64,000 nt of DNA from Bacilli bacterium (GCA_017404555.1 JAFRCD010000001.1:15850-79849), one strand, 5' to 3'; shown: positions 3,236-27,800, numbered from the stretch's first letter. Numbers and translations: made by a program. Notes: generated from the letters alone by a model not told the origin.

Positions 3236-3473
3236 AAAACTTGCTCTCTTCCCCCTGGCCCCTAAGTGGTGTCTTAGAAATCCTTATTTTATAAAGATTT
3301 CTTTTATTTTAGGTACCATTTTACATACCAGCAAGCTAGTACATTTTGAAGAGAGCATAAATTTGGTTCATCTCAGTACATATTTAGGGTAGCACAATAG
3401 TAAAAAATTTCAAAGTCATTCGAAATTAATTATTATATTTCATATAAAATGATGAGGAAAACAGAAGGTTATA

Positions 3474-3482
3474 TGATATAAT
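3474..3482 (+). promoter_or_regulatory. extended -10 element (TGnTATAAT) upstream of the methyltransferase gene
   Basis: tgatataat lies about 40 nt upstream of AGGAGG (3512-3517) and ATG 3523. Confidence 0.4.
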
Positions 3483-3522
3483 GTTTATAGGAGATATAGT
3501 AAGTACAAATCAGGAGGAAAAT

Positions 3523-5466
3523 ATGTTTGATATACAAAATCGTAGATACATAGGTAATAAATATAAATTAATGGATTGGATATCTGATTTAATAGACAAA
3601 AATTGTAAAAATTGTCACTCGTTCTTTGATGTATTTGCCGGAACTGGATCTGTAACGGATTATATGTTTGATAAGTATGATAGATTTATAATAAATGACT
3701 TTTTATATTCAAACAATATAATATATAATGCCTTTTTTTTGAATGAAGAATATAATGCTGAATTGATAAATGATATAAAAATTAGATATCAGAAATTAGA
3801 TTCATCAAAACTTAAAGATAATTATGTTTCAATCAATTTTGGAAATAAGTTTTTTAATTATGATGATTCTTTAAAAATTGGATACATAAGAGAAGACATT
3901 GAAAAGTTAAAAAAATCTAACAAAATTAATTACAAAGAATATAGTATATTAATTGCTTCACTATTATATTCTTTAGATAGGATAGCTAATACAATTGGCC
4001 ATTATGATGCTTATAGAAAAACAAAAGAAATAAAATCAAGTTTCATATTTGAATTGATTAATCCTAAAGATGATAATCAAAAAAAGGTAATAGAAATATA
4101 TAGAGAAGATTCTAATGGCTTAGCTAAAAGAGTTAAATGTGATATTGCTTATATAGATCCTCCATATAATTCGAGACAATATAGTAGATTTTATCATGTT
4201 TTAGAAAATATTACTGAATGGAAAAAACCTGAGTTATTTGGGGCTGCTTTAAAACCTAAAGAAAAAAATATGTCTGATTATTGCAAGGTTACTGCTCCAA
4301 TAGCGTTTAATGATTTGGTTCAAAGCTTAGATGCAAAATACATAGTAGTTTCTTATAATAATACATACAATTCTAAGAGTAATTCTTCAAAAAATAAGAT
4401 TACATTAGAAGAATTAGAAACAATATTGTCTAGTAAAGGTGAAACACAAATATTTGAAAAGAAATACAAGGCATTTGATGCTGGGAAAACAGATTTAAAC
4501 GATCATAAAGAATTTATATTTATAACTAAAGTAAAGAAAGATATTAAGAAGGAAATATCTTATAGATCACCATTATTTTATGTTGGTGATAAATATAAAT
4601 TAATGCCTGAAATTAAAAAATATATGCCAGAGGGGATTGTTAATTATGTAGAACCTTTTGTTGGCGGTGGTTCATCGTTTCTAAATGTAAAAGCAAAAAA
4701 TTATATTGTCAACGATATAGATACAAGTATTATGTCAATTCATGAAATGCTAAAATCATATTCATTTGATAAAGAAAAATTCTTTGATAAAGCTTTCAAA
4801 TTAATAAATCGTTATGGATTATCATGTTCATATAATGGACATTTAGTTCCTGAAGAATTAAAGCAAAAATATAAGAAAACTTACTATGCTAAGTATAATA
4901 AAGAAGCATACATAAAATTAAGAAATGACTATAATAAAGATCAAAAGGATATATTAAAGTTATATTTATTATTAATATATGGATTTAATCATATGACAAG
5001 ATTCAACTCTAAAGGTCAATTTAATTTACCTGTTGGTAATGTGGATTTTAATAGTAATGTATATAATTCACTAAATTATTATTTTGATTATTTAAAGAGA
5101 ATAAAAATAAAATATTCAAGTATGGATTATAAAAAATTTTTAAATTCTTTATTGCTAAATGAAAATGACTATGTATTATTGGATCCTCCATATTTAATAA
5201 GTCAAAGCGAATATAACAAATTATGGAGTGAAAAAGATGAAAAAGAATTATATGAATTATTAGATGAACTTGATAAAAAGGGAATTAGATTTGGTATAAC
5301 AAATTTGGTTTATCATAAAGGAAAGAAAAATACTATTTTTGAAAAATGGTCTAAAAAGTATAATGTTTATGAGATTAATAGTAATTATATAAGCTTTAAT
5401 GATAATACAATTAAAGCAGGATCTAAGGAGGTGTTTGTTACTAATTATGGCACAAGCAAAGAGTAA
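3523..5466 (+). CDS. fused tandem N6-adenine DNA methyltransferase (two D12/Dam-class alpha domains), M.FokI-like
   Basis: Two complete Dam-like modules are each visible directly in the translation. Domain 1 has RRYIGNKYKL, FAGTGS (motif I) and IDPPYN (motif IV). Domain 2 has LFYVGDKYKL, FVGGGS and LDPPYL. The protein is 647 aa. The motif strings and the two-domain layout match my recollection of M.FokI (GGATG/CATCC). Confidence 0.8.
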   Translation: MFDIQNRRYIGNKYKLMDWISDLIDKNCKNCHSFFDVFAGTGSVTDYMFDKYDRFIINDFLYSNNIIYNAFFLNEEYNAELINDIKIRYQKLDSSKLKDNYVSINFGNKFFNYDDSLKIGYIREDIEKLKKSNKINYKEYSILIASLLYSLDRIANTIGHYDAYRKTKEIKSSFIFELINPKDDNQKKVIEIYREDSNGLAKRVKCDIAYIDPPYNSRQYSRFYHVLENITEWKKPELFGAALKPKEKNMSDYCKVTAPIAFNDLVQSLDAKYIVVSYNNTYNSKSNSSKNKITLEELETILSSKGETQIFEKKYKAFDAGKTDLNDHKEFIFITKVKKDIKKEISYRSPLFYVGDKYKLMPEIKKYMPEGIVNYVEPFVGGGSSFLNVKAKNYIVNDIDTSIMSIHEMLKSYSFDKEKFFDKAFKLINRYGLSCSYNGHLVPEELKQKYKKTYYAKYNKEAYIKLRNDYNKDQKDILKLYLLLIYGFNHMTRFNSKGQFNLPVGNVDFNSNVYNSLNYYFDYLKRIKIKYSSMDYKKFLNSLLLNENDYVLLDPPYLISQSEYNKLWSEKDEKELYELLDELDKKGIRFGITNLVYHKGKKNTIFEKWSKKYNVYEINSNYISFNDNTIKAGSKEVFVTNYGTSKE

Positions 5467-7057
5467 ACCATTATCATTTTCTACTACTATGAGAAATCCT
5501 AATAGAATAGCTGGTTTTTTATCACAAATAGTAGAATTTGAAGGGCAAGTTTTAACAAGTGAAATAATATATAAAGTTATACATAATGTTATAAAAAATA
5601 AATTATATTATACTATGTATGAATATGGCAAACCTGAATATAAAGATATATATTTTTCTGACGAATTAGAATTTTCTGATGAACAAGTAGATGATATTAT
5701 TGCTAGTACAAAACAAAAACATAAAGAGGCAGGATTTGAAGAGGGTTGGGAATCACGCTTTGATACTTGGTTTAGCTTACCTAAAGAATTTGGATTTGTC
5801 TTTTATGAAAAAGGAAAACAAATTAGAATATCTGAAACAGGACATATGTTAATAGATAATAGTAATTTGGAAGAACCTGATGAAGTAATGAATCAAAATA
5901 TATTTTTAAACAGTTTATGTAAGTATCAAACAAATAATCCATTTAAGAAAAATTTAAATGAAAATAATCCGTTACTTTTACTTTTGAATACAATTAAATT
6001 ATTGAAGAATGATCCTGAAGAAAATGATGCAGGAATATTTAGAAGTGAACTTAGTTTATTAATATGTTGGAATAATAATGATGCTACTGAAGTATATAAG
6101 CTAATTAAAAAGTTACGTAAACAAGTTGGGTTTCAATATAGTGATGAAATGATTTATGATATTTGTTTAGAATTATTAGGATGTGTTACACCAGAAGAAA
6201 AAGAAGCAAGTAAAAAATATTTTAAGATTGATAAAATATGTGGTGAAGCAGTAGATGAATATATAAGAAAAATGAGAAGCACAGGAATATTATCGTTAAG
6301 AGGAAATGGTAGATTTTTAGATTTTAATAGTTTTGAACAAAAGAAAATTGACTATGTACTAAGTAAGTACTCATCTATTAAAACTTATAGTAGTGAAGAA
6401 GAATATTTTAATTATATTGGTCAAAAAGATAAAGAATTATTTGATATTAATGATGAAGTAGATTATTCTAAAGAATATGGTATAAAGATTGAAACACTAA
6501 ATAAATTTGCAAACAAGTATACTAAGGAAGAAATATTTAAGGAACTTCTGATTTTAAGTAAGAAAACAGAAAGTAAAAATGATGAATTTAGATTTATACC
6601 TGATCCAACAAGATTAGAATTTTTAACTAGTATTTCTCTTGTTCAAAATTTAAATGGATGTTATGTTGAACCAAATTATTCAATAGATGATGAGGGAATG
6701 CCAACTATGACTGCAAGGGGCAATATGCCAGATATAGTTTGCACTGAAATAAGTGAAAACCCAAATGTATCGCCTTTGATTTCAAATGTTGAAGTGACCA
6801 TGATGAGAGGTAAAACTGACCAAGTTATGAATGAGATGATACCTATTAGAAGACATTTATTAAATGATATGTCAAAGCATAAGGATGTTTTTGCTGTTTT
6901 TGTTGCTCCATTTATTCATGATGATACTAAAGAAGCTTCTGAATGGTATAAACATAAAGACAATATAAATATAAATTTATATACAATAGAAGAATACATT
7001 TTAACAATAGAACAGCATAGTGAATTATATTATTTGAATAAAATGGAGATGAAGTAA
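5447..7057 (+). CDS. putative type IIS restriction endonuclease (FokI-like)
   Basis: The gene overlaps the methyltransferase gene by 20 nt. The N-terminal GxxxxWxSxFxxW...GFxxY pattern and a C-terminal PD...(E/D) segment (GNMPDIV...NVEVT) resemble the FokI recognition and cleavage domains from memory. The position directly after a FokI-like methyltransferase supports the call. Confidence 0.5.
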   Translation: MAQAKSKPLSFSTTMRNPNRIAGFLSQIVEFEGQVLTSEIIYKVIHNVIKNKLYYTMYEYGKPEYKDIYFSDELEFSDEQVDDIIASTKQKHKEAGFEEGWESRFDTWFSLPKEFGFVFYEKGKQIRISETGHMLIDNSNLEEPDEVMNQNIFLNSLCKYQTNNPFKKNLNENNPLLLLLNTIKLLKNDPEENDAGIFRSELSLLICWNNNDATEVYKLIKKLRKQVGFQYSDEMIYDICLELLGCVTPEEKEASKKYFKIDKICGEAVDEYIRKMRSTGILSLRGNGRFLDFNSFEQKKIDYVLSKYSSIKTYSSEEEYFNYIGQKDKELFDINDEVDYSKEYGIKIETLNKFANKYTKEEIFKELLILSKKTESKNDEFRFIPDPTRLEFLTSISLVQNLNGCYVEPNYSIDDEGMPTMTARGNMPDIVCTEISENPNVSPLISNVEVTMMRGKTDQVMNEMIPIRRHLLNDMSKHKDVFAVFVAPFIHDDTKEASEWYKHKDNININLYTIEEYILTIEQHSELYYLNKMEMK

Positions 7058-9267
7058 TGGAAGCAAATAATAGAATGTTATATGATGATATAATAAAGAA
7101 AACAGATGTTCAATATACGATTCCGGTATATCAAAGAAATTATACTTGGGAAAAAGAAAACTGTGAGTTATTGTATAACGATATAGTTAGTAGTATAAAA
7201 AATGAGAGAAACCATTTTTTAGGAAGCTTAGTTTATTCAACAACAAAACGTAATGATATAAAAAGCTGTCCGATAATTGACGGACAACAAAGATTAACAA
7301 CAATTATGTTATTATTGAAAGCTATTGATGATTTAATTAAAGATCCTGAAAATATTACAAAAAAGAAAATTAAACAAAATATATATAACGAAAACTGTGA
7401 AGAGAGATATAAACTAAAACTTAAAAATAGTGATAATGATAATTCTGAATTGGAAAAAGTATTGATGGGGAATACTACTAATTTAGATACAACATCTAAA
7501 GTAGTTATCAATTATAATCATTTTAAATCTTTAATTAAAAGAACTATTGAAACAGAACAGTGGAGCCCTGATAAATTGGTTGAAGGCATTGATAGATTGG
7601 AAATTGTTGAAATAGTTTTAAACGAAGGAGATTCACCTCAAAAAATATTTGAAAGTATAAATTCTACAGGAGTAAAGTTAACAACTGCAGATTTAATTAG
7701 AAATTTTTTACTTATGGGCATTTTGGATGTTGGAAAGCAGGCTGAAATATATAAAAATTATTGGATAACAATAGAAAGTTTAATAGGTAAAGATAATATT
7801 GAAAAGTTTTTCTATGATTTTCTTGTTTCAAAGGATACAAGGTACATAGAAGAAAAGAAAGTATATGAAAATTTTAAAAAATATTATATAAATAGTAACA
7901 TAATAGGAATTGAAGGTATTGAAAAGATATTTAGTGAAATAGTTAGATATGCTCAGTATTATAAATTGTTAGTTTTAAACAATTCTAAAGATTATGATAA
8001 AGTAACAAATCAATTATGCAATATATTTAATATTTTGCAACATAGAACTATATATCCATTTATGTTAAAAGTATGTAATGATTTTGATGATATTAGAAAA
8101 TTACATATGAAAAGAAAAAACGATGTAGGTGAAGAAGTTAAAATAGAGTTAACAAAAGAAGAAGAATTAGAATTAATAAATAAGGAAAAAGAATTTAATA
8201 ACATTATAAGATTATTTGGTAATTATGCTATGAGACGTAATATAGCAAATGTTGCTTCATCAAGTCTACGTAGATTTTATGCATCTTTATATAATAAAAT
8301 ATTTGAAAAAAATAAAAATAATTTTAACTGTTATTTTAAGGCATGTGAGGCATATTTATGTACATTAAAAACAGAAGATAGGATGCCTAATGATAATATG
8401 TTTAAGGATGGCTTACTATATAGTAATATGTACGCTAATGCTAAAACAAGAATATTAAGATATTTCTTTGATTTGATAGAAAATAGTGGAAAAGAGCCAG
8501 TCGATATGTCTGAATTAACTATAGAACACATAATGCCTGAGACATTAAGTACTCAGTGGAAAACAAGTTTGGGTGATAATTATCAAGAAATATATGATAA
8601 ATACGTTCATACATTAGGTAATTTATCCATTACAGGTTATAATTCTGAATATAGTAATGATCCATTCTTGAGTAAGAAAAAACGTTATAATGATATGCTT
8701 ATTACAGGTGAAACTAAAATTGTAAAATTGAATGAAGAATTAAAGAATAATAAAGAAAACAACATAGAGATTTGGAATGAAGACGAAATTGAGAAGCGTG
8801 CAGAAAGATTATCAAAAGTAATTATGAAGGAGTTTCCTTATCCTAAAGACATAGATACTACATTAGAGTTTGAAAAATTTTATGAATTCTATATAGATAA
8901 TCCTGAAGATAATGCTGATGAATTTGAAAACAGCCCTGCATACAAATTATATGGATTCCAATTTGAAGAAACAAAATATAGGGCAGATAGTTACAGAAGC
9001 ATATTCAAGGAGATAATTAAATTATTATATAATATTGATAATTCTGTTTTAGATGACTTAGCAAATAGTAATTATACCTATGAAAGAGGTAAAACTATAA
9101 GATTTTCGAGAACTAAAGAAAATGAGCATCAAGAAGAAATTTTACCATCATTATTTGTTTATACAAATTATAGTAGAAGTACAATTTTTGATTGGATAAG
9201 AGATTTATTTAATAGATATCAATTAGATATATCATTATTTTGTTTATTATTTATAGAAAAAGAATAA
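7057..9267 (+). CDS. GmrSD-like type IV restriction enzyme (DUF262 N-domain fused to DUF1524 HNH-like C-domain)
   Basis: DUF262 motifs are present (IPVYQRNYTWEKE; IIDGQQRLTT). The C-terminus has a His-Me finger-like TIEHIMPE. The ATG overlaps the upstream stop codon (taATGg). Confidence 0.8.
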   Translation: MEANNRMLYDDIIKKTDVQYTIPVYQRNYTWEKENCELLYNDIVSSIKNERNHFLGSLVYSTTKRNDIKSCPIIDGQQRLTTIMLLLKAIDDLIKDPENITKKKIKQNIYNENCEERYKLKLKNSDNDNSELEKVLMGNTTNLDTTSKVVINYNHFKSLIKRTIETEQWSPDKLVEGIDRLEIVEIVLNEGDSPQKIFESINSTGVKLTTADLIRNFLLMGILDVGKQAEIYKNYWITIESLIGKDNIEKFFYDFLVSKDTRYIEEKKVYENFKKYYINSNIIGIEGIEKIFSEIVRYAQYYKLLVLNNSKDYDKVTNQLCNIFNILQHRTIYPFMLKVCNDFDDIRKLHMKRKNDVGEEVKIELTKEEELELINKEKEFNNIIRLFGNYAMRRNIANVASSSLRRFYASLYNKIFEKNKNNFNCYFKACEAYLCTLKTEDRMPNDNMFKDGLLYSNMYANAKTRILRYFFDLIENSGKEPVDMSELTIEHIMPETLSTQWKTSLGDNYQEIYDKYVHTLGNLSITGYNSEYSNDPFLSKKKRYNDMLITGETKIVKLNEELKNNKENNIEIWNEDEIEKRAERLSKVIMKEFPYPKDIDTTLEFEKFYEFYIDNPEDNADEFENSPAYKLYGFQFEETKYRADSYRSIFKEIIKLLYNIDNSVLDDLANSNYTYERGKTIRFSRTKENEHQEEILPSLFVYTNYSRSTIFDWIRDLFNRYQLDISLFCLLFIEKE

Positions 9268-9337
9268 AAGAAGGCGCTAGTACAGGCTTAATATATAAGT
9301 TTTTGTATGGCGTTTTTTTAGTAGGAGGTAATTAATA

Positions 9338-9676
9338 ATGTCTAAAACTATCATTCACAATATGCCTTTACCTTCAAATACAAAATATAAATGGTCTGAA
9401 TGTTTTGCTAAATTAATGTTGGAAAAAGTGATAACTAGTGAGTTAAATAATTTAGCTATAGCTGATAAACCAGATCTTCAAAATGCAAGCATGAGTGTTG
9501 GTATTGAGGTTACTACTGCTGTTGATAAAAAAGATATGGAGTTAGAGAGACTATACACTGAAATTGAATATGGATTGATTAGAAATATTGAAGGTGCAGC
9601 AAAAAAAATTAATAGATTGGGTGGAAAAATTATTGATGGAATATTAATTCATCCAGGACGACAAGAACACTTATGA
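9338..9676 (+). CDS. hypothetical protein (first gene of the three-gene module)
   Basis: 112 aa, AGGAGG RBS 9 nt upstream. No recognisable domain. Confidence 0.55.
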   Translation: MSKTIIHNMPLPSNTKYKWSECFAKLMLEKVITSELNNLAIADKPDLQNASMSVGIEVTTAVDKKDMELERLYTEIEYGLIRNIEGAAKKINRLGGKIIDGILIHPGRQEHL

Positions 9677-9999
9677 ATATATATAATTCTTTTAAAGAAA
9701 AAGTAATTTTGTTAAATAGTGGAAATTATACTATTTTTAAACATAATTATATATTCATTACTGATGAAAATTTAGCACATGAGGAAGAAATCAAAATGGT
9801 AATGATGGAGTTAGAGTTTATACAGGAAAAACAAAAGAATAAATTTGAAAGGGCTTATATATATATTTATGGAGATAAACTTTATGAGTTAAATCTAAAA
9901 CAAGAAAAATACAAAATATTTAAATTATCTTCAGATGAGGTTTATAGAATAAGTATAGATGCTAGAACTATTGTAGAAGAAAAAGAAATGGAGATGTAA
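9673..9999 (+). CDS. hypothetical protein (second gene of the module)
   Basis: 108 aa. Its start overlaps the upstream stop (ATGA). Its own stop lies 2 nt before the next ATG. Confidence 0.55.
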   Translation: MNIYNSFKEKVILLNSGNYTIFKHNYIFITDENLAHEEEIKMVMMELEFIQEKQKNKFERAYIYIYGDKLYELNLKQEKYKIFKLSSDEVYRISIDARTIVEEKEMEM

Positions 10000-10001
10000 T
10001 T

Positions 10002-12191
10002 ATGAAATTAGCTGAAAACCAAAAAATATTCAAGCAGTTAAATATTGATGATGCTTTGTGGGATGATATAAAAAAAGATGACAATAAGGTATTAATTGTT
10101 TATGGATCAAATGGAAGAGGTAAATCTACAATAAAAGATTTATTTCAAAAAGAAAATTTAGAAGAAAAGTTTGGATGTGAATCAGAAAATCAATCTAATA
10201 CTTTATATAATGAATTTGGAAATAATAAGTTTTTAGTATTTGATGAAAAATTTGTTGATCAATTTGTGTATTTTAATAATGCGCTGCAACAAAATAGTAT
10301 GAAAATTATAATGAAAACTGATTACATAAATGAACTATATAATGAAAAATCACACGCTAATGATGTAGTAGATATGATATTAGATACAATCAATAAATAT
10401 TTATCGACTATTGAATCATTTAATTCTATTCTAAATATTAAGTCTAATACAGGAAAAATTACTGATGCTAAAAAAAGATTTGCAACTACATTTATAGAAG
10501 GAAATTTGCCATATAAATATGATGATTTATTTGAAATAAGTGACGATAATCATAGAAAATGGTGGTATGAAGGTCTTTTACTATATAAGGATAATAAGCT
10601 TGATTTTTGCCCTTGGTGTAAAACTACTATTGAATCTGTAAATGAATCTTTAAAAGAACAAATAAAATCTGTGGATAATACGAAGCGAATCAATACTAAA
10701 CTATTTAGTGATAAAGTTGATAAAGTTTCTAATCTGTCGACAATAATGAATAACACTTTAATTAATGAAGAAGTAAAAAATAAAATTAGTCAACTAATTT
10801 CAAAAATAAACGTTTCTGTAGATCAGAATGTTGAAGAAAAGATTTTAACTGACATGGAGTCATTATATTCTTTATTGATTAATGATAATGAAATATTTGC
10901 TGAAATAAAAGATAAAGTTAAAATTTTAGATAATATATTAGAGATACAAGACATAGATTTAGCTAATAATATATCTAAATTAAAATTTTTTAGTCCAACA
11001 GATGAAATTATCAAATTAAGTGATAATTTGGATTATTTTATTAAATATAATAAGGATATTATTAATGGTATTAAAGATAGTAATAAAAGATTGCATGAAA
11101 TAATTAAAAGTGACGAAATTGATATTAATAATATTATTAAAAGTTTAGGATTAAAATACTATATAGAAATTGAATCTGATACTATAGTTTCCTCTGGAAT
11201 AAATGATAATGAAAAATACATGTATTTAAAGAGTTTGAATGGAAAAGACGTAAGTCAAAATATCGGGAATGTGCTTAGTTTTGGTGAAAAAAGTACATTA
11301 GCGTTTGCAATATTTATAGAACAGATTCGAAATTGTACTGATGAAAACACTATTATAATTTTTGATGATCCAATATCTAGTTATGATATTTTTAGAAGAT
11401 ATACTTCGCTCGGAATTATACAGACAATTACTGCATTACAATATAAAAAAATAGTAATACTTACACACGAAAGTAATTTTTTAACGTCGATTGTTTCAAA
11501 TTATGAACATTATACAAATGTTAAATGTACTATTTTAACAGAAATTAATGAATCAGAAATAGAAATAAAAGAATTACATAGACAATATGATAGTGAGGTT
11601 AATGTCTATAAAGATATGCTGAATTTTTCCTTTGATTTTCATATTTCACAAAGAATAATAGCTTTAAGACAGTTGCACGATTTATATCAATATATAACTG
11701 GAGATAGCAAAAAAGAATTATATAAATATATATGCAAATTAGTACATTTTAGAAAAGATGAACAAACATATTGGAATCAAGTAATGAAAACACAAATTAA
11801 TGAATTATTTAATTATTTTGCTATTAGTTATGATTCTCAAATTGAAAATATAAAGGATGAACAATTAGTATTTTCAGACATGGAACAATTATTAAATGAG
11901 ATAACATCAAAGGATATATATGATATTACATTAGAGGATCTAGTAAGCTTAAGAATGATTTCAGAAGTTTCAGTTAGAAATGAATCGAATGATGCAAATA
12001 AATTCAAAGTTAGAACATTATGGTCTATTAAATCATCAAGTAAAAAAGACCAACTTCAAAATTTTAAAGTTCTACTTAATTCAATTACTCATATCGATAA
12101 TGATGAAATAACATGGCCTGTTTTATGTATAAATGATTTAAAGTCAATTCCTAAATATGTTATATCCCAAATTATTAGTATAATAAAATAA
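10002..12191 (+). CDS. ABC/Rad50-like ATPase with a CxxC hook-like insert (RloC/PrrC- or Lamassu LmuB-like defence ATPase candidate)
   Basis: Walker A (YGSNGRGKST) is followed by an insert of about 400 aa containing CPWC, then an ABC-signature-like LSFGEKS, Walker B (IIIFDDPISSYD) and a His-loop-like LTHESNF. A further 240-aa C-terminal region has unknown function. Confidence 0.6.
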   Translation: MKLAENQKIFKQLNIDDALWDDIKKDDNKVLIVYGSNGRGKSTIKDLFQKENLEEKFGCESENQSNTLYNEFGNNKFLVFDEKFVDQFVYFNNALQQNSMKIIMKTDYINELYNEKSHANDVVDMILDTINKYLSTIESFNSILNIKSNTGKITDAKKRFATTFIEGNLPYKYDDLFEISDDNHRKWWYEGLLLYKDNKLDFCPWCKTTIESVNESLKEQIKSVDNTKRINTKLFSDKVDKVSNLSTIMNNTLINEEVKNKISQLISKINVSVDQNVEEKILTDMESLYSLLINDNEIFAEIKDKVKILDNILEIQDIDLANNISKLKFFSPTDEIIKLSDNLDYFIKYNKDIINGIKDSNKRLHEIIKSDEIDINNIIKSLGLKYYIEIESDTIVSSGINDNEKYMYLKSLNGKDVSQNIGNVLSFGEKSTLAFAIFIEQIRNCTDENTIIIFDDPISSYDIFRRYTSLGIIQTITALQYKKIVILTHESNFLTSIVSNYEHYTNVKCTILTEINESEIEIKELHRQYDSEVNVYKDMLNFSFDFHISQRIIALRQLHDLYQYITGDSKKELYKYICKLVHFRKDEQTYWNQVMKTQINELFNYFAISYDSQIENIKDEQLVFSDMEQLLNEITSKDIYDITLEDLVSLRMISEVSVRNESNDANKFKVRTLWSIKSSSKKDQLQNFKVLLNSITHIDNDEITWPVLCINDLKSIPKYVISQIISIIK

Positions 12192-12194
12192 TTA

Positions 12195-12232
12195 AAAGCA
12201 TATATAGCCACGAATCTATATATGCTTTTTTT
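12195..12232 (+). terminator. rho-independent terminator
   Basis: aaaagcatatatag...ctatatatgctttttttt. Confidence 0.7.
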
Positions 12233-12241
12233 ATAACATTT

Positions 12242-12283
12242 TTACATCCTATTTTAGATGACAAATTACATCCCATTTTAGAT
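12242..12283. repeat. two 18-nt direct repeats (ttacatcc[t/c]attttagat) with a 24-nt period
   Basis: Read directly from the sequence. One mismatch between the two copies. Confidence 0.6.
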
Positions 12284-12524
12284 ATTTTTGTGGTATCTAA
12301 AAAATGATACTAAAATGTACTACAGTGTACAAACCCTTATTTTATAAGGAATTTTGAATTGTGGTGAATAAAAGAAAGGCTAAAATTTTCGGCCCCCTGA
12401 AGAGAACAAAGATATAATTATGTAATTAGGTCTTAAAATAAAACAAATAAAGTGATAAAATTGTTAATGGTTATAGAATAGTAAAAGGGAAACTTGGTAT
12501 TTGGAATATTTAATGGGTGATTAT

Positions 12525-14335: not shown

Positions 14336-15271
14336 ATGGAAGAAAAATTTGATTTAAAAAAGAAAAGAATTAGTATTCTAGATAACTATGGAGAAAATCT
14401 AACCGAGAAAGATTATATTACTAATCCCGCTATTGGTAGGGAAGAACAGATTAAAGAAGCAGTATTAATATTACTTACTCCTGATAAATCAGTTGTTTTA
14501 ACTGGTAAACCTGGTGTTGGTAAAACTGCTATTGTTGAAGGAATTGCTTATAGAATGCAACTTGATAATATTCCTGATAAGTTAAAGGGTTATGAAATTA
14601 TTAAAGTAAATACTAGTGCTTTATTAGGAGTAGATCCAGTAACTGGAGAAGCTAAGATTCAAACTCTAATTGATGAGTTAAAGAATTATTCTAAATTAAT
14701 TCTCTTTATTGATGAGATTCATACTCTTATGGGTAGTAAGGGTGAAGCACTTGACTTTGCTAATATGTTTAAACCAGGACTAGATCGTGGTGATATTAAA
14801 GTAATTGGTGCTACTACTGATGATGAGTATGAGAGATATATCTTAAGAGATAAAGCCTTTGTTCGTCGTTTTGCCAGAGTACGTGTTGAAGAACCTACTC
14901 GTGATGAAACAGTCAATATTGCATTGGGTACTTTACCTAAGATTGAAAAAAGAACGGGTGCTAAAATGGAGTACTCAGACTTTACTAAGAAACAAATTAT
15001 GGAGTTTTTAACGGATATAACCAGTGAGTTTAAACGAATCTATGAAATTGGTTCTAGGTATCCGGATATTGTTTTGACTATTATTCAAGAAGCTTTCTCT
15101 AACGCTTTATTTGAAAATAGGAAGAATGTCAACATTTTAGATTTCCGGAAAGCTCTTGTAAACTCCAAAAATATTTATGATGATATTAAAAGAAAAGAAC
15201 TACCAACCTTTGATCAAATCTTCGATGATGAAATAGAAAAAGCTAATGCCGGAATAATAGTTGATAATTAA
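14336..15271 (+). CDS. stand-alone AAA+ ATPase resembling the D1 module of ClpA/ClpB/ClpC
   Basis: GKPGVGKTAIVEGIAYR (Walker A), LFIDEIHTL (Walker B) and GATTDDEY...RRF match Clp D1. There is no N-domain or D2 domain; the protein is 311 aa. Confidence 0.7.
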   Translation: MEEKFDLKKKRISILDNYGENLTEKDYITNPAIGREEQIKEAVLILLTPDKSVVLTGKPGVGKTAIVEGIAYRMQLDNIPDKLKGYEIIKVNTSALLGVDPVTGEAKIQTLIDELKNYSKLILFIDEIHTLMGSKGEALDFANMFKPGLDRGDIKVIGATTDDEYERYILRDKAFVRRFARVRVEEPTRDETVNIALGTLPKIEKRTGAKMEYSDFTKKQIMEFLTDITSEFKRIYEIGSRYPDIVLTIIQEAFSNALFENRKNVNILDFRKALVNSKNIYDDIKRKELPTFDQIFDDEIEKANAGIIVDN

Positions 15272-20022: not shown

Positions 20023-20934
20023 ATGAAAAACTTTGATTTTAGTTGGTTTTTAACAATACCAGGAATGTTGATTACCGGAGGAGTATTATTATTAATTATT
20101 GCCTTGATAATATTTATTGCTACTTCAGGTAAGAAAGATAAAAAAGATAAGAAGAAAGGGAAGGAAGAAGTACCAGTGGATAATAATATGATGAATGCTG
20201 CACCAGCAGCCGGAGCTGTAGCTCCAAATCCAGAAATTGCAACTATGGATGTACCAGCTGATACACCAGCTGAAGCACCAACAGAGGCTCCAGCAATCCC
20301 AATTGAGGTACCTGATCCAACTACTGAAGCTACTCCAGAGCCAGCAGAACCATTTGCTGTACCTGAGGCTACACCTACTCCTGAAACACCAGCAGCAGAG
20401 ACACCTGCTGTAGAAACTCCAGTAGTAGAAGCAGCACCAGTAGAAACTCCTGCTGTAGAAACACCAGTAGTGGAAGCTGCTCCAGTAGAGGCAGCACCAG
20501 TAGAAGCTACTCCAGTTGAAACTCCTGTTGTAGAGGCAGCGCCAGTAGAGACTCCAGTAGTAGAAGCTGCTCCAGTGGAGACACCAGTAGCTGATGCTCA
20601 AGTACCAGAAGTACCAGTAGTAGAAACACCAGTAGTAGAAGCTGCTCCAGTAGAGGCAGCACCAGTAGAAGCTACTCCAGTTTATGGCGGTGCTGATCCG
20701 AGTGTAAGCAATGTAGATGTTACTCCAGCTGAAGAGCCAAAACAAATATATGGTGGCGCTAATCCTGCTGATAATACCGGTGTAGTAGAAGCTACTCCAG
20801 TAGAAACTCCAGTAGTAGAGGCAGCACCTGTAGAAGCCGCTCCAGCAGCAACTCCAGTAACACCAGTTAGTGTTCAACCAGTTGGTGAACCAAGTTCAAT
20901 CCCAACAGTTGTTCAAAACGAAACAAATAATTAA
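20023..20934 (+). CDS. membrane-anchored Pro/Ala/Val/Glu/Thr-rich repeat protein
   Basis: N-terminal TM (LTIPGMLITGGVLLLIIALIIFI) is followed by a low-complexity region with (E/A)(T/A)PVVEAAPV repeats. Confidence 0.65.
   Translation: MKNFDFSWFLTIPGMLITGGVLLLIIALIIFIATSGKKDKKDKKKGKEEVPVDNNMMNAAPAAGAVAPNPEIATMDVPADTPAEAPTEAPAIPIEVPDPTTEATPEPAEPFAVPEATPTPETPAAETPAVETPVVEAAPVETPAVETPVVEAAPVEAAPVEATPVETPVVEAAPVETPVVEAAPVETPVADAQVPEVPVVETPVVEAAPVEAAPVEATPVYGGADPSVSNVDVTPAEEPKQIYGGANPADNTGVVEATPVETPVVEAAPVEAAPAATPVTPVSVQPVGEPSSIPTVVQNETNN
20380..20680 (+). repeat. imperfect tandem repeats of about 30 nt encoding ETPVVEAAPV units
   Basis: Recurrent gaaactcc(a/t)g(t/c)(a/t)gtagaagc(a/t)gc(a/t)ccagta blocks are visible in the DNA. 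Confidence 0.7.
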
Positions 20935-21373: not shown

Positions 21374-21401
21374 TTGACATATAAACAGTATTTGTTATTA
21401 T
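21374..21401 (+). promoter_or_regulatory. putative sigma-A promoter (TTGACA, 16-nt spacer, TATTAT)
   Basis: A consensus -35 and a near-consensus -10 lie about 20 nt upstream of the GGAGG RBS of the 21421 gene. Confidence 0.5.
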
Positions 21402-21420
21402 GCCTTTGATGGAGGTAATA

Positions 21421-22302
21421 ATGAATTACTATAACGAGATAAAGAACAAGCTTATTGATAATGAGATATATATTAAAGTAAAAGATTATTCTAAAGAAAG
21501 AAATAGAGTAATTACTTATTATGAAGTGGGTAAGTTATTAAGTTCTGCTGGCAAACAATATGGTGATGGAATAATTAAAGAGTATTCAAAAAGATTAACC
21601 AATGAAGTTGGAAAAAAATATACTGTTAGATATTTGTTTGATATTAGGAGATTATACTATTTTTTAAAAGTGCACCCGCTGGATGCATTTTTAACATTTT
21701 CTCATTATAGAGTTTTATTTGTCTTGAAAGATGACAACGAAGTCAATTATTACATAAATCAAACTGTTGAAAGAAATTTATCAAAACGGGCATTACAAGA
21801 GGTAATTAAAAATAAAGAGTATGAAAGATTGCCAGAGAAAACTAAAAAGAAATTAATAGAAAACAAAAATACTAGTGTACAGGATTTAATTAAAAATCCT
21901 ATTATAATAAGAAATCCTAATAATATAGAAGTAGTAAAAGAAAAGGTACTACAAAGATTAATACTAGAAGATATAGATAACTTTTTAAAGGAGTTAGGAG
22001 ACGGATTTAGTTATATTGAAAATGAATACAAAATAAAGATAGGACCTAGTTATAATTATATAGATTTATTACTTTTTAATTATAAATATAATTGTTTTGT
22101 GGTAGTAGAGTTAAAAGTAATTCCTCTAAAGAAAGAACATATAGGACAGATAAAAGTATACATGAACTACATAGATAATCATTTAAGAAATATTAATCAA
22201 GATAAGACAATAGGTATTATTATATGCAAACATAATAATACATTTATTATGGAATACTGTTCCGATAAAAGGATTCTTTCTAAAGAATATAGTTTGGTTT
22301 AA
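21421..22302 (+). CDS. DUF1016/YhcG-family PD-(D/E)XK nuclease
   Basis: C-terminal core IDLLLFNYKYNCFVVVELKV (D...ELK), with an N-terminal YhcG-like region. Confidence 0.65.
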   Translation: MNYYNEIKNKLIDNEIYIKVKDYSKERNRVITYYEVGKLLSSAGKQYGDGIIKEYSKRLTNEVGKKYTVRYLFDIRRLYYFLKVHPLDAFLTFSHYRVLFVLKDDNEVNYYINQTVERNLSKRALQEVIKNKEYERLPEKTKKKLIENKNTSVQDLIKNPIIIRNPNNIEVVKEKVLQRLILEDIDNFLKELGDGFSYIENEYKIKIGPSYNYIDLLLFNYKYNCFVVVELKVIPLKKEHIGQIKVYMNYIDNHLRNINQDKTIGIIICKHNNTFIMEYCSDKRILSKEYSLV

Positions 22303-24833: not shown

Positions 24834-24884
24834 AAATAAAAAGAAAAAAGTTATATAATTGAATATATAATGAGGAGAATCAGT

Positions 24885-27800
24885 ATGAAAAAACGCCAAA
24901 ATATATTTTTATTTATAATAGCAGGATTATTATTTTGTGGAGGATTGACGGGCTTTATTATGACTTTAAGAGCATCGCTAGCTGAAGTGGGTACCAACAC
25001 TTTATATGGTGCTATTGCAGCTGATCCTTTAACAGCAGTTTATGAAGGAGAACATCAAGATAGTTTAGATGGTTCTGGAAATGAAGCAATCCATTATTTC
25101 ACAGGTAGTGATGAGATAGTAAATCACAATAATGTAAAGCTAGGGGATACTTGTTGGCAAGTATTAAGAACTACTGATACTGGTGGAGTTAAAATGATTT
25201 ATAATGGTCCTTATGATGAAACCAACAAATGTAACTCTTCAAGAGGAACTCATAAAGGTATAATTAATACAAAAGGAGAGACAACAGATTTATCTGGTGG
25301 AGCTTATTTATACGGTTATGGTTTTACTTATAATGAGTCAACGGGAGAATTTACTTTAATTAATCCAATCAGTGCAACTTGGAGTAGTTCAACATATAAA
25401 AGTTTAGAGGGCAAATATACTTGTATGAGTACTTCTGATACTTGTACAACCATTTATAATATTCATAGTTATAGTAGTGATACAAGCGCTAAAACAACTA
25501 GTTATACAATCGATGATACCCACTATTCTCAAATTGGAACAAGTCCCTTCAATATAAATTCCAATCTGGCTATGGGCGGATATATGACTAATAGTTCCTA
25601 TTCCACTACGGCAACTTCTTATACAGCGCAAGCAGAACAGGTTTTACAGCAAAGCAGCAGTTTGTTTACAAATAGTTATTACTATGGATCAAGCATAAAA
25701 ACTAATGGTAGTCTCTATAATATAGGAGGAACAATAAGTAGAAATCCGGGAGCAGGATTATATACAGTCTTGTCTTCTAGTCTTTATGGTTCAACAGCAT
25801 ATTATATAGTCGGTAAAAGCGGTTCAGTATTTTATTACTTAACTTTAACTGGCGGTAAATCGCTAGCTGCAACTGAGAAATACTACACGTATGGGGATAG
25901 TTATACAGGAAATACTATAGCTAATCCTTCAAGTTTAAAATCAACAAATTTCTTTTCTAGGCATAATAGTCTTAGAAATAAATTCTATTGTTCTGGCGCA
26001 ACAAGCACTGCTTCTTGTACTCTAAAATATGCTACAAACACAACACCAGCAACAATAAGTTATATTTCAGCCAGTGGTACAAAATATGGTAATAAAGTAA
26101 CCTATGCTAATGGAAAATATACTTTGGTAGGTGTAGTAACTGGTTTTCCAGATAAGAACCACCATTATACATGTAATAATGGAGCAACAACTTGTGCAAC
26201 GGCATACTATGTAAATTCTTTTAGTGGAAATGCTTTGCGCCGAATAACACTAACTGGCGGAAAAAACATCAATAACGTTATTGAAGAAATGTATGATTCT
26301 AATTCCGTAAACCACTATAATTCATCGATAAAAAGTCAGATAGAAGGTTGGTATAGAGCAAAACTAGCTAATTATACAAAGTATTTTGAGGACGCTATAT
26401 ATTGTAACGATCGAACTAGAGCCAATCAATCAGAAAGTGGATTTGGCCCAAGTGGAGGAAGTTTAACAAAATCATTATATTTTACTGATCGAAATGACAA
26501 TACAGCTTTGAAATGTACTAAGCAAACTGATCAATTTGCAGTTGGTAATATTAAGGCTAAGAATAAATATCCTGTGGGATTAGCAGCAGCTGCAGAAATG
26601 AATTTATTAGATAATGATGCGGCCAGGACGACAGGAGAAAGCTATTGGTTAGGATCACCTTATGCTGCTAGTATTTATGCTAGCAATGGTTATATCAATA
26701 ATGAGGGAAGTGTTATATCTTATAATACAGGTGAACCTCGCGGGACTCGTCCAGTAGTATCTTTGAAAGCTGGCACAAAATATATATCAGGAACTGGTTC
26801 GCAAACAGATCCATATGTAATTGATATAAGGCCAGTCATAACTACTAGCGTTAAACATGGTACTATAACCGAAACTGATCAAGTAGAAGAAGGTTCCAAC
26901 AAGACAATTAGTTATAGCCCTGATAGCGGTTATCAGTTAAAGAGTATTAAAGTAGATGGTGAAGAGGTAAGTATTACTACATATGCTAATAGTTATGCAT
27001 TTAATAATATAACTGAAGATCATGCTATAGAAGTAGAATACTGGAAACCAACAATAACTACAAGCGTTATTCACGGAACAATAACTGAAACATCAGATGT
27101 GGATTCTGGTGAAGATAAAACAATTAATTATAGCCCTGATAGTGGTTATGATTTGAAAAAGATTACAGTAGATGGTGTAGATGTAAGTATTAGTGCTCAT
27201 GCTAGTAGCTATACATTTACTAATGTAACCGAAGATCATTCAATTGAAGTTGAGTATTGGAAACCAACAATAACTACTTCTGTTATTCATGGAACAATAA
27301 CTGAAACATCAGATGTAGATTCTGGTGAAGATAAGACAATTAATTATAGTCCAGATACGGGGTACAGATTAGAAAGTATAAAAGTAGATGGCGTAGAAGC
27401 TAGTATAACAGCTTACCCTAATAGTTATACCTTTAACAATGTAACAGAGGATCATACCATAGAAGTAGTATATGTCAATAAAAAAGTAGGCTATATAGTA
27501 AACTATTTAGAAAATGAAACTGATAAAGTCTTACATACTCAAAAACGAGAGGAAAATGCTTACTACGGTGATGAAATAATCAGCATACAAGAGATGATTG
27601 ATATTGATAATTATCACTTCGTTGATTTCAACAAAGAACGAATAGTACTAGAGGAAAATATCAATGATAATATCATTAATCTATACTATGAAAAAAATAG
27701 TAAAGAAGAAGTAATTACTGAACATAGTATGGTTCTTACTAGTGAAAAAGCAAAAATAACAAGTGAAGAAGACAAAGTTGATTATCAAATTAAATATCGA

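What the first reader, a model, noticed from the sequence alone, without database searches (positions are those of the whole stretch)
3481..12191. About 9 kb multi-system defence island with no mobility genes
Eight consecutive same-strand genes sit between two housekeeping-type loci. They are a FokI-like double methyltransferase, a putative type IIS endonuclease, a GmrSD-like type IV enzyme, two small unknowns and a Rad50/ABC-like ATPase. The block has no integrase, transposase or tRNA. The stop/start overlaps at 5447-5466, 7055-7059, 9673-9676 and 9997-10004 indicate two or three polycistronic units.
Basis: partly seen in the sequence, partly recalled or inferred. Interest (0 to 1): 0.6.

Follow-up and report, generated by a model that had tools for sequence, protein, structure and literature searches.

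The report
Mosaic anti-phage defence island, three modules
This 9-kb stretch is a fairly ordinary bacterial anti-virus gene cluster made of three known kinds of defence module; the two "small unknown genes" are one partner gene broken in two by a single-base deletion.

Summary
The observation largely holds. Window 3481-12191 carries a same-strand block of defence genes between ordinary genes, with no integrase, transposase or tRNA. It has six ORFs, not eight, and they make five genes.

- **Module 1:** a fused double Dam-type adenine methyltransferase plus an AlwI-family type IIS endonuclease.
- **Module 2:** a GmrSD-type type IV enzyme whose start overlaps the endonuclease stop.
- **Module 3:** a 220-aa gene of an uncharacterised family followed by a 729-aa ABC/Rad50-like ATPase.

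The 220-aa gene is split here into 112-aa and 108-aa ORFs by a 1-nt deletion. The ATPase belongs to PADLOC candidate family PDC-S06 and Pfam AAA_13. It has an invariant CPWC "zinc hook" and a conserved Arg/His-rich helical C-terminal domain. I read it as an RloC-like anticodon nuclease; that reading rests on motifs only.

The modules are mosaic. The 2.9-kb third module recurs at 88.6% identity in a different island. A related island carries the same kinds of module plus a tyrosine integrase. Synonymous codon usage matches the host, and no empty site was found.

Verdict: a new member of known kinds, of modest interest. The open point is the widespread, unannotated 220-aa partner family.

The parts
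3241..3300 (.). Left-border motifs in the intergenic region after the flavodoxin-like gene: TTGCTCTCTTC (3241-3251), GGCCCC (3257-3262), and a near-palindromic CCTTATTTTATAAAGATTT (3282-3300).
   Evidence: Each motif has a counterpart at the right border. GGCCCC occurs only 3 times in the 64 kb, and 2 of those bracket the block. The meaning is not established.
3481..5466 (+). Fused M1-M2 N6-adenine DNA methyltransferase, made of two D12/Dam-class domains. The likely true start is ATG 3523.
   Evidence: Pfam PF02086 at 2.6e-60 in two stretches. PADLOC MTase_II matches run the full length. NCBIfam dam at 1.6e-43. FAGTGS and DPPY at 3634-3651 and 4156-4167; FVGGGS and DPPY at 4657-4674 and 5182-5193. 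It is 85% identical to the L181 methyltransferase, with the alignment starting at 3523.
5447..7057 (+). AlwI-family type IIS restriction endonuclease. The start is ATG 5447 or TTG 5435, overlapping the methyltransferase stop.
   Evidence: Pfam RE_AlwI at 1.4e-33. PADLOC REase_II PDLC03507 at 2.9e-160 over the whole profile. The sequence around the start was read.
7057..9267 (+). GmrSD-family type IV (modification-dependent) restriction enzyme. Its start overlaps the endonuclease stop (TAATG).
   Evidence: GmrSD_N at 3.3e-35 and GmrSD_C at 4.7e-22. PADLOC Orf5, HEC-06, SspE and mREase_IV models match. DGQQR at 7279-7293 and EHIMP at 8524-8538.
9338..9999 (+). One 220-aa gene of an uncharacterised family, split by a 1-nt deletion at about 9658-9661 into ORFs 9338-9676 (112 aa) and 9673-9999 (108 aa).
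   Evidence: The two ORFs tile the intact 220-aa protein of L085. P0064 is an intact allele that differs by 2 residues. 37 of the 46 family proteins found are 216-225 aa; the rest are mostly shorter partial sequences. The invariant R110 is lost. The split is present in all independent assemblies of this organism.
10002..12191 (+). 729-aa ABC/Rad50-like ATPase with a CxxC hook and a helical C-terminal domain, read as an RloC-like candidate anticodon nuclease (PADLOC PDC-S06).
   Evidence: Pfam AAA_13 at 1.3e-13. PDC-S06 PDLC04889 at 5.9e-33 over the full length. Walker A at 10104-10130, WWYEG at 10560-10574, CPWC at 10608-10619, LSFGEKS at 11274-11294, Walker B/D-loop at 11352-11387, H489 within 11460-11474, H582-x-R584 at 11745-11753, R651-x3-E655 within 11949-11966, H697 within 12078-12104.
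9301..12234 (+). A portable two-gene cassette (220-aa gene, ATPase and terminator) shared with a different island.
   Evidence: blastn gives 88.6% identity over 2937 nt to L085 9298-12234 and to L087. The sequence on either side is unrelated.
12194..12229 (.). Terminator-like hairpin directly after the ATPase gene.
   Evidence: The scan found a 14-bp stem. The sequence with a T-run on the + strand was read. The hairpin lies inside the block shared with L085.
12242..12409 (.). Right-border motifs: tandem TTACATCCYATTTTAGAT x2 (12242-12283), CCTTATTTTATAAGGAATT (12335-12353), GGCCCC (12391-12396), and GAAGAGAACAA (12399-12409, inverted copy of 3241-3251).
   Evidence: The motifs are found only in assemblies of the same organism. 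Their function is not established.

Best explanation
The block is a chromosomal defence island assembled from three separately exchangeable modules. It probably derives from an integrative island that has lost, or never carried, its recombinase at this site.

**Module 1 (shown by homology).** This is a type IIS restriction-modification system. The fused double Dam-type methyltransferase methylates adenine on both strands of an asymmetric site. The AlwI-family endonuclease cuts unmethylated incoming DNA beside that site.

**Module 2 (shown by homology).** This is a GmrSD-type enzyme that cuts DNA carrying phage-type base modifications. It covers phages that escape module 1 by modifying their DNA. 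It is translationally coupled to module 1.

**Module 3 (inferred).** The 729-aa ATPase works like RloC. A Rad50-like ABC head, with a coiled-coil arm ending in a CPWC zinc hook, senses DNA ends or damage made during infection or restriction. It then releases a C-terminal metal-independent RNase that cuts tRNA anticodon loops, shutting down translation as a back-up (abortive) defence.

**The upstream 220-aa protein.** It is a facultative partner of unknown role. In this organism it is broken by a frameshift that removes an invariant arginine. Module 3 therefore now runs, if at all, on the ATPase alone or with a two-piece partner.

**Confidence by part.** About 0.9 that this is a three-module defence island with the stated module 1 and module 2 identities and a split partner gene. 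About 0.55 for the RloC-like RNase mechanism of the ATPase. The overall figure given is a blend of the two.
For: **Modules 1 and 2**
- Searches give the profile hits and motifs.
- PMC12898733 states that AlwI-family endonucleases are always found with a fused DNA adenine methylase-Dam methyltransferase.

**Module 3 architecture**
- The ABC motifs and Rad50 heads appear in the PDB profile search.
- W187, G191, C203, P204 and C206 are invariant across 32 homologues and an Enterobacter plasmid protein.
- The hook context WWYEGLLLYKDNKLDFCPWC resembles the RloC alignment W-V-x-E-G...H-x5-C-x-F-C in the supplement of PMC2610378.
- R651-x3-E655-x41-H697 fits that paper's Arg-X3-Glu-X36-52-His rule.
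- The C-domain model is all-helical with pLDDT 91, as HEPN-type RNase domains are (PMC3710099).
- That paper also describes RloC-like ABC-HEPN genes embedded in R-M neighbourhoods as multi-pronged defence.

**Genomic context**
- Every homologue context examined is a defence island next to R-M genes.

**Mosaicism**
- The third module is shared with L085 as a discrete block.
- The methyltransferase is 85% identical to that of L181, but the endonuclease only 29%.
- L181 and L182 are 98-99% identical upstream but only 43% in the ATPase.

**Origin from a mobile island**
- L181 has GmrSD, the same methyltransferase, an AlwI endonuclease, the 217-aa gene, the ATPase and then a tyrosine integrase.
- The 220-aa gene also sits at the ends of large-serine-recombinase islands.

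**The split gene**
-.
Against: **Nuclease activity is not shown**
- The C-domain matches no Pfam, NCBIfam or PADLOC nuclease model.
- It has no PDB fold neighbour by Foldseek.
- In a six-sequence alignment with distant homologues, the Arg-x3-Glu element aligns to a different arginine. Only R556, H582, R584 and H697 are invariant.
- The canonical HEPN Rx4-6H spacing is not present.
- PDC-S06 is an untested candidate family in the papers found.

**Acquisition is not proven**
- No strain lacking the island was found.
- Synonymous codon usage and GC3 equal those of the core genes.
- The border motifs do not form a clean att site or target-site duplication.
Confidence: 0.7

Rival explanations
1. 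Module 3 is a sensor-effector pair, not an RloC-like single-chain nuclease. The ATPase only senses and activates, and the 220-aa protein is the nuclease effector, as in Septu, PARIS or Lamassu-type ATPase-plus-nuclease systems. With the 220-aa gene frameshifted, the system in this organism is dead.
For: - The genes are tightly coupled, with the same 2-nt spacing in the window, L085, L181 and L182.
- The pairing holds while the ATPase diverges to 43-65% identity.
- The 220-aa family has invariant E21, K25, E29, D46, E57 and R110. Its 'PD...EVT' strand pair is reminiscent of PD-(D/E)xK nucleases.
- Weak hits to Cas4, NucC and PD-(D/E)xK proteins appear among the top fold matches.
Against: - The ATPase occurs without the 220-aa gene at 68% and 49% identity.
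- The 220-aa gene occurs without any ATPase.
- All fold hits are non-significant: best E 0.08 against the PDB and 0.02 against BFVD, with TM below 0.35.
- hhalign against the AlwI catalytic domain gives probability 0.13.
- The ATPase keeps its own conserved 200-aa C-terminal domain with invariant His and Arg residues.
Confidence: 0.2
2. The 220-aa protein is a silencer or antitoxin of the ATPase's toxic nuclease, analogous to EcoprrI silencing PrrC. Alternatively it is a recombination accessory factor of the mobile islands, with no defence role.
For: - It lies upstream of the ATPase and is translationally coupled to it.
- In three other lineages it sits directly after a large serine recombinase as the last gene of an island. 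That is the position expected of a directionality factor or of end-of-island cargo.
Against: - If it were an essential antitoxin, the frameshift should be lethal. Yet the ATPase ORF is intact with all motifs, and the split is present in every assembly examined, from four samples.
- ATPase homologues live without it.
- There is no homology to known directionality factors or antitoxins in any library.
Confidence: 0.15
3. The block is not an acquired island. It is a long-resident, vertically inherited region whose lower GC simply reflects its amino-acid composition.
For: - GC3 is 0.155 against 0.169 +/- 0.03 for the core genes, and the synonymous codon score is 0.342 against 0.321 +/- 0.067, so the two are indistinguishable.
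- The block is present in all 11 contigs that carry the identical flank proteins.
- There are no mobility genes.
Against: - The closest available relatives share no synteny here.
- The 2.9-kb cassette sits at 88.6% identity in a different genomic context with sharp homology ends.
- Homology to L181 stops at the methyltransferase stop codon.
- A related island carries an integrase.
Confidence: 0.15

Closest known systems
AlwI-family type IIS R-M systems with a fused M1-M2 adenine methyltransferase (described for Mycoplasma bovis, M. meleagridis and Streptococcus uberis in PMC12898733; M.FokI is the classic fused double methyltransferase)
   Same: - The gene order is methyltransferase then endonuclease.
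- Two D12/Dam-class domains sit in one chain, each with FxGxGS and DPPY motifs.
- The endonuclease is of the AlwI family and matches its profile over the full length.
   Different: - The recognition sequence is unknown.
- The endonuclease is only 29% identical to the one paired with an 85%-identical methyltransferase in a related island. This implies endonuclease replacement under a conserved methyltransferase.
GmrSD / BrxU / SspE family type IV restriction enzymes (DUF262 + DUF1524)
   Same: - Both domains score above Pfam cut-offs.
- The DGQQR motif and the His-Me finger region are present.
- It is a single polypeptide.
   Different: - There is an extra 150-aa C-terminal tail (about residues 590-736) with no family match.
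- The gene is translationally fused into the type IIS operon.
- The target modification is unknown.
[quoted passage not shown]
   Same: - It has an ABC ATPase head with Walker A, signature, Walker B/D-loop and switch His.
- A helical insert carries a CxxC hook preceded by W-x-x-E-G.
- The C-terminal helical domain has Arg-x3-Glu...His at RloC-like spacing.
- Its size is in the range of Firmicute RloCs (706-804 aa).
- It sits next to R-M genes.
   Different: - There is no significant sequence match of the C-domain to any curated model.
- The arm before the hook is about 85 residues shorter, and the stretch between Walker B and the putative triad is about 75 residues longer.
- It is often preceded by a coupled 220-aa gene, which is not described for RloC.
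- Activity is untested.
PADLOC phage defence candidate PDC-S06
   Same: - The full-length match to PDLC04889 is 5.9e-33.
- Distant homologues of the same family score 4e-184 and 1.2e-252.
   Different: - The window protein is a divergent branch.
- PDC-S06 is listed as a single-gene candidate without experimental proof or a proposed mechanism in the papers found.

Membership tests
Type IIS R-M, AlwI family with fused double methyltransferase | Endonuclease matches the AlwI-family profile over its length | tested here: met
   PF09491 at 1.4e-33 (117 bits, cut-off 23.1). PADLOC REase_II at 2.9e-160, residues 20-548 against profile positions 5-538 of 542.
Type IIS R-M, AlwI family with fused double methyltransferase | Two complete N6-adenine methyltransferase domains, with an AdoMet motif and a DPPY catalytic motif in each | tested here: met
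   PF02086 matches in two stretches. FAGTGS with DPPY, and FVGGGS with DPPY.
Type IIS R-M, AlwI family with fused double methyltransferase | Asymmetric recognition site, cleavage outside the site, and protection by methylation of both strands | not testable with these tools
   This needs a methylome or enzyme assay. Site-frequency counts in 64 kb were uninformative.
GmrSD type IV restriction enzyme | N-terminal DUF262 domain with DGQQR, plus C-terminal DUF1524 His-Me nuclease domain | tested here: met
   GmrSD_N at 122.5 bits (cut-off 33.2) and GmrSD_C at 78.8 bits (cut-off 23). The motifs were located.
GmrSD type IV restriction enzyme | Cleavage dependent on modified bases | not testable with these tools
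RloC (ABC ATPase-anticodon nuclease) | ABC ATPase motifs: Walker A, signature, Walker B/D-loop and switch His | tested here: met
   GSNGRGKST, LSFGEKS, IIIFDDPISSYD and LTHES are invariant or nearly so in 32 homologues. Rad50 and ABC proteins are the top PDB profile hits.
RloC (ABC ATPase-anticodon nuclease) | Coiled-coil insert carrying a CX2C zinc hook | tested here: met
   The CPWC motif is invariant (C203, P204, C206), with W187 and G191 upstream. The context resembles the RloC alignment in the supplement of PMC2610378. Coiled-coil character is inferred only from the AAA_13 match and helical-bundle hits. Zinc binding is untested.
RloC (ABC ATPase-anticodon nuclease) | C-proximal Arg-X3-Glu-X36-52-His catalytic triad | tested here: inconclusive
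   R651-x3-E655-x41-H697 is conserved within the family. With distant homologues the Arg-x3-acid element aligns elsewhere. Only R556, H582, R584 and H697 stay invariant.
RloC (ABC ATPase-anticodon nuclease) | Detectable homology of the C-domain to the PrrC/RloC (HEPN-type) RNase domain | tested here: not met
RloC (ABC ATPase-anticodon nuclease) | tRNA anticodon-loop cleavage, activated by ATP and DNA ends | not testable with these tools
   Biochemistry is required.
PADLOC PDC-S06 | Match to a PDC-S06 profile over the full length | tested here: met
   PDLC04889 at 5.9e-33, residues 22-728 against profile positions 15-687 of 693. Five further PDC-S06 models also match.
Integrative genomic island | Recombinase gene, att repeats, or a tRNA target | tested here: not met
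   The window has no recombinase and no tRNA. Border motifs exist but form no clean direct repeat. The related island L181 does have a tyrosine integrase.

The most novel reading that the evidence does not exclude
The 220-aa protein defines a large, entirely unannotated family: at least 1065 clusters at 50% identity, no model in four libraries, no fold neighbour in the PDB or BFVD, and a confident model with pLDDT 93. Under this reading it is a new functional partner of RloC-like ATPases, either a nuclease or a trigger sensor. Together they would form a two-gene defence system distinct from single-chain RloC. The same protein would double as end-of-island cargo of serine-recombinase elements.
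Probability: 0.25. Interest if true: 0.55.

Novelty: new member of a known kind. Interest (0 to 1): 0.32.

Why it matters
As a defence island the block is routine. It does three useful things.

- **A mechanistic reading for PDC-S06.** It gives a concrete, testable reading of an untested PADLOC candidate family: an RloC-like protein with a zinc hook and a putative RNase domain.
- **An uncharacterised partner family.** It flags a widespread protein family that travels both with these ATPases and with large serine recombinases.
- **Evidence of module-by-module exchange.** The endonuclease has been swapped under a conserved methyltransferase, and ATPase alleles have been swapped under conserved neighbours. 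This bears on how defence specificities diversify in uncultured low-GC gut Firmicutes.

Tried and rejected
**Finding an empty site or the island ends by comparison**
- Scans of genome contigs and metagenome contigs with YggS found relatives at no more than 82% identity, none syntenic.
- Exact-protein look-ups of both flank genes returned only island-bearing contigs.

**Composition as a marker of foreign origin**
- GC is 24.2% against 27-29% in the flanks. The gap comes from codon positions 1 and 2.
- GC3 and synonymous usage match the core genes.

**Border repeats as att sites, inverted terminal repeats or a structured RNA**
- The motifs are real but not collinear.
- RNA folds are not better than shuffles, with z-scores of -1.75 and -0.56.
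- Rfam gives nothing even at E up to 1.

**Fold assignment of the 220-aa protein and of the ATPase C-domain**
- Foldseek against the PDB and BFVD gave no significant hits.

**Other tests**
- Homology of the 220-aa protein to the AlwI catalytic domain: hhalign probability 0.13.
- Guessing the R-M site from under-representation of candidate type IIS sites: no clear signal.
- Fusion partners of the 220-aa domain in longer relatives: no Pfam domains.
- Presence of the 220-aa family in IMG/VR viral contigs: none.
- Programmed frameshift or phase variation as the cause of the split: rejected. Relatives are uninterrupted, and the deletion is not in a long repeat tract.

Full report
**What is there.** The window is very AT-rich, 24-30% GC. 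Between 3481 and 12191 there are six + strand ORFs of 100 aa or more, not eight.

- The methyltransferase stop at 5464-5466 lies inside the endonuclease ORF, whose start is ATG 5447 or TTG 5435.
- The endonuclease stop and the GmrSD start share TAATG at 7055-7059.
- The two small ORFs share ATGA at 9673-9676.
- The second small ORF and the ATPase are 2 nt apart (TAAttATG, 9997-10004).

The only gap inside the block is 9268-9337. A terminator-like hairpin follows the last gene at 12194-12229. The whole window has no tRNA and no Rfam family. Neither the block nor its neighbours has a recombinase or transposase domain.

**Modules 1 and 2.** ORF 3481-5466 has two D12-class N6-adenine methyltransferase domains (PF02086, 2.6e-60, two stretches). 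It matches PADLOC type II methyltransferase models that span both halves and the NCBIfam Dam family. Each half keeps FxGxGS and DPPY. Its likely true start is ATG 3523. That codon follows AGGAGG, and the alignment to the 647-aa homologue in L181 begins there.

ORF 5447-7057 is an AlwI-family endonuclease (PF09491 at 1.4e-33; PADLOC REase_II at 2.9e-160, full length). A recent paper notes that AlwI-family endonucleases are always associated with a fused DNA adenine methylase-Dam methyltransferase (PMC12898733). The pair is therefore a known arrangement.

ORF 7057-9267 has both GmrSD domains above Pfam cut-offs, with DGQQR and the EHIMP/His-Me region. It also has an unassigned 150-aa tail. The overlaps make MT-RE-GmrSD one translationally coupled unit.

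**The two small ORFs are one broken gene.** In locus L085 a single 220-aa ORF occupies the same position in front of an 89%-identical ATPase. The window's 112-aa and 108-aa ORFs tile it end to end. The DNA alignment shows a 1-nt deletion in the window at about 9658-9661.

A search found 46 related protein clusters. 37 are 216-225 aa and most of the rest are shorter partial sequences. One of them, P0064, is an intact allele that differs from the window by two residues. It already has Met at position 113. This explains why the frameshift produces an ATGA stop-start overlap.

The shift replaces residues 109-112 and removes R110, which is invariant in 40 sequences. The split appears in every assembly of this organism that was found, from four different samples. 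It is therefore a real mutation present in all sampled assemblies, not a sequencing error. It does not lie in a long repeat tract.

**What the 220-aa protein is.**
- A profile search of 1.84 billion representatives found 1065 family members at E <= 1e-3 and 421 at E <= 1e-10. Nearly all are 200-235 aa.
- No member tested matches Pfam, NCBIfam, PHROGs or PADLOC.
- The AlphaFold model is confident, with pLDDT 92.8 and pTM 0.89. Even so, it has no significant neighbour in the PDB or BFVD.
- Conserved E21, K25, E29, D46 and E57 on a helix-strand-strand core look like a PD-(D/E)xK site. This remains a lead only. A profile comparison with the AlwI catalytic domain was insignificant.

Its contexts fall into two groups:
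- It is directly coupled to the ATPase in the window, L085, L181 and L182/L183.
- In more distant members it is the last gene after a large serine recombinase, at the end of islands carrying type I R-M, HpaII or AbiE genes.

It is absent from IMG/VR viral contigs.

**The ATPase.** ORF 10002-12191 matches Pfam AAA_13 and PADLOC PDC-S06, with PDLC04889 at 5.9e-33 over the full length. Its distant homologues P0054 and P0056 score 4e-184 and 1.2e-252 against the same model. A family profile hits Rad50 and ABC heads in the PDB.

Conserved features across 32 homologues:
- Walker A, the LSxGE signature, the DDPISSxD Walker B/D-loop and a switch His are invariant or nearly so.
- W187, G191 and the C203-P204-x-C206 motif are also conserved.

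The same set is conserved in a 20%-identical Enterobacter plasmid protein that lies beside a type II endonuclease and integrases.

The RloC papers define RloC by three features: ABC motifs, a coiled-coil/zinc-hook insert with CX2C, and a C-proximal Arg-X3-Glu-X36-52-His triad (PMC2610378). The supplement's alignment shows the hook context W-V-x-E-G...H-x5-C-x-F-C. This protein has WWYEGLLLYKDNKLDFCPWC.

In the C-terminal 205 residues the close family conserves R651-x3-E655-x41-H697. The domain models as an all-helical bundle with pLDDT 91. That is compatible with the HEPN-type RNase fold assigned to PrrC and RloC (PMC3710099).

The limits of this reading are clear:
- No curated model or solved structure matches the C-domain.
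- With distant homologues the Arg-x3-acid element aligns to another arginine. Only R556, H582, R584 and H697 remain invariant.
- PDC-S06 has not been tested experimentally in the papers found.

I therefore say it works like RloC, at about 55% confidence. I do not file it as a proven RloC family member.

**Mosaic structure and origin.**
- blastn shows that window 9301-12234 (220-aa gene, ATPase and terminator) is 88.6% identical to L085 and L087. Homology ends sharply on both sides, and the neighbours differ.
- Locus L181 has an ATPase 65% identical to the window's. It carries a GmrSD gene, a methyltransferase 85% identical to the window's, an AlwI-family endonuclease only 29% identical, a four-gene insert, the 217-aa gene, the ATPase, and then SymE and a tyrosine integrase. 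DNA homology to the window stops at the methyltransferase stop codon.
- L181 and L182 are 98-99% identical in four upstream genes and 89% in the 218-aa gene, but only 43% in the ATPase.
- Other ATPase homologues stand alone next to Dcm or MutH-type R-M genes.

So the same kinds of module are reshuffled gene by gene among related islands, some of which are demonstrably integrative.

**Evidence on acquisition.**
- Relatives with 53-82% identical YggS share no synteny, so the block is not core.
- No empty site was recovered.
- GC3 and synonymous codon usage match the core genes.
- The borders carry paired motifs. GGCCCC is rare, with 3 copies in 64 kb, and two of them lie at 3257 and 12391. There is an inverted 11-mer at 3241 and 12399, and similar small palindromes at 3282 and 12335.
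- These motifs do not form a clean att site or target duplication, and they show no RNA-structure signal.

**Verdict.** The corrections are five genes rather than eight, a frameshifted partner gene rather than two small unknowns, and an RloC-like reading of the ATPase. The island is a new member of known kinds. The points worth following up are the unannotated 220-aa family and the untested PDC-S06/RloC-like mechanism.

Noticed in passing
window 3507-5470 vs L181 1768-3733; window 5447-7057 vs L181 3698-5272: The methyltransferase is 85% identical in protein (82% in DNA) to that of a related island. Homology stops at its stop codon, and the AlwI-family endonuclease downstream is only 29% identical. 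The endonuclease gene seems to have been replaced under a conserved methyltransferase.
   Followed up: partly
L181 5358-12190 vs L182 70-6902: Two islands share four upstream genes (72, 640, 304 and 270 aa, the last with DUF6339) at 98-99% identity and the 218-aa gene at 89%. Their ATPases are only 43% identical, which points to allele replacement of the ATPase. The four-gene set may be a further uncharacterised system.
   Followed up: no
L093 6125-8663, L096 6396-8654, L099 6393-8654: Distant members of the 220-aa family sit immediately after a large serine recombinase. A conserved 31-aa ORF lies upstream. The 220-aa gene is the last gene of defence-cargo islands, in two of the three cases next to a LysM amidase gene.
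   Followed up: partly
window 3241-3300 and 12242-12409: Paired border motifs flank the block. GGCCCC occurs at 3257 and 12391, out of only three copies in 64 kb. There is an inverted 11-mer TTGCTCTCTTC / GAAGAGAACAA and similar palindromes CCTTATTTTATAARGA. A tandem TTACATCCYATTTTAGAT x2 lies at 12242-12283. The motifs are unexplained.
   Followed up: partly
window 21400-22302: A separate YhcG/DUF1016-type PD-(D/E)xK protein matches PADLOC candidate PDC-S02 at 5e-54. It lies 9 kb downstream of the island among ordinary genes.
   Followed up: no
window 20023-20934: A 303-aa membrane-anchored protein is made largely of PVETPVVEAA-type tandem repeats. Its GC is 44.7% in a 29% GC background, and the repeats create a long spurious antisense ORF.
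   Followed up: no
window 14336-15271: A 311-aa AAA ATPase lies directly upstream of glmS. It has faint TniB/nSTAND and weak PADLOC IetA matches. It is probably an ordinary SpoVK-like AAA protein.
   Followed up: no
window 26904-27472: A 216-nt tandem repeat (2.6 copies, 80% match) lies inside the 1151-aa ORF 24870-28325. This suggests a repeat-domain surface protein.
   Followed up: no
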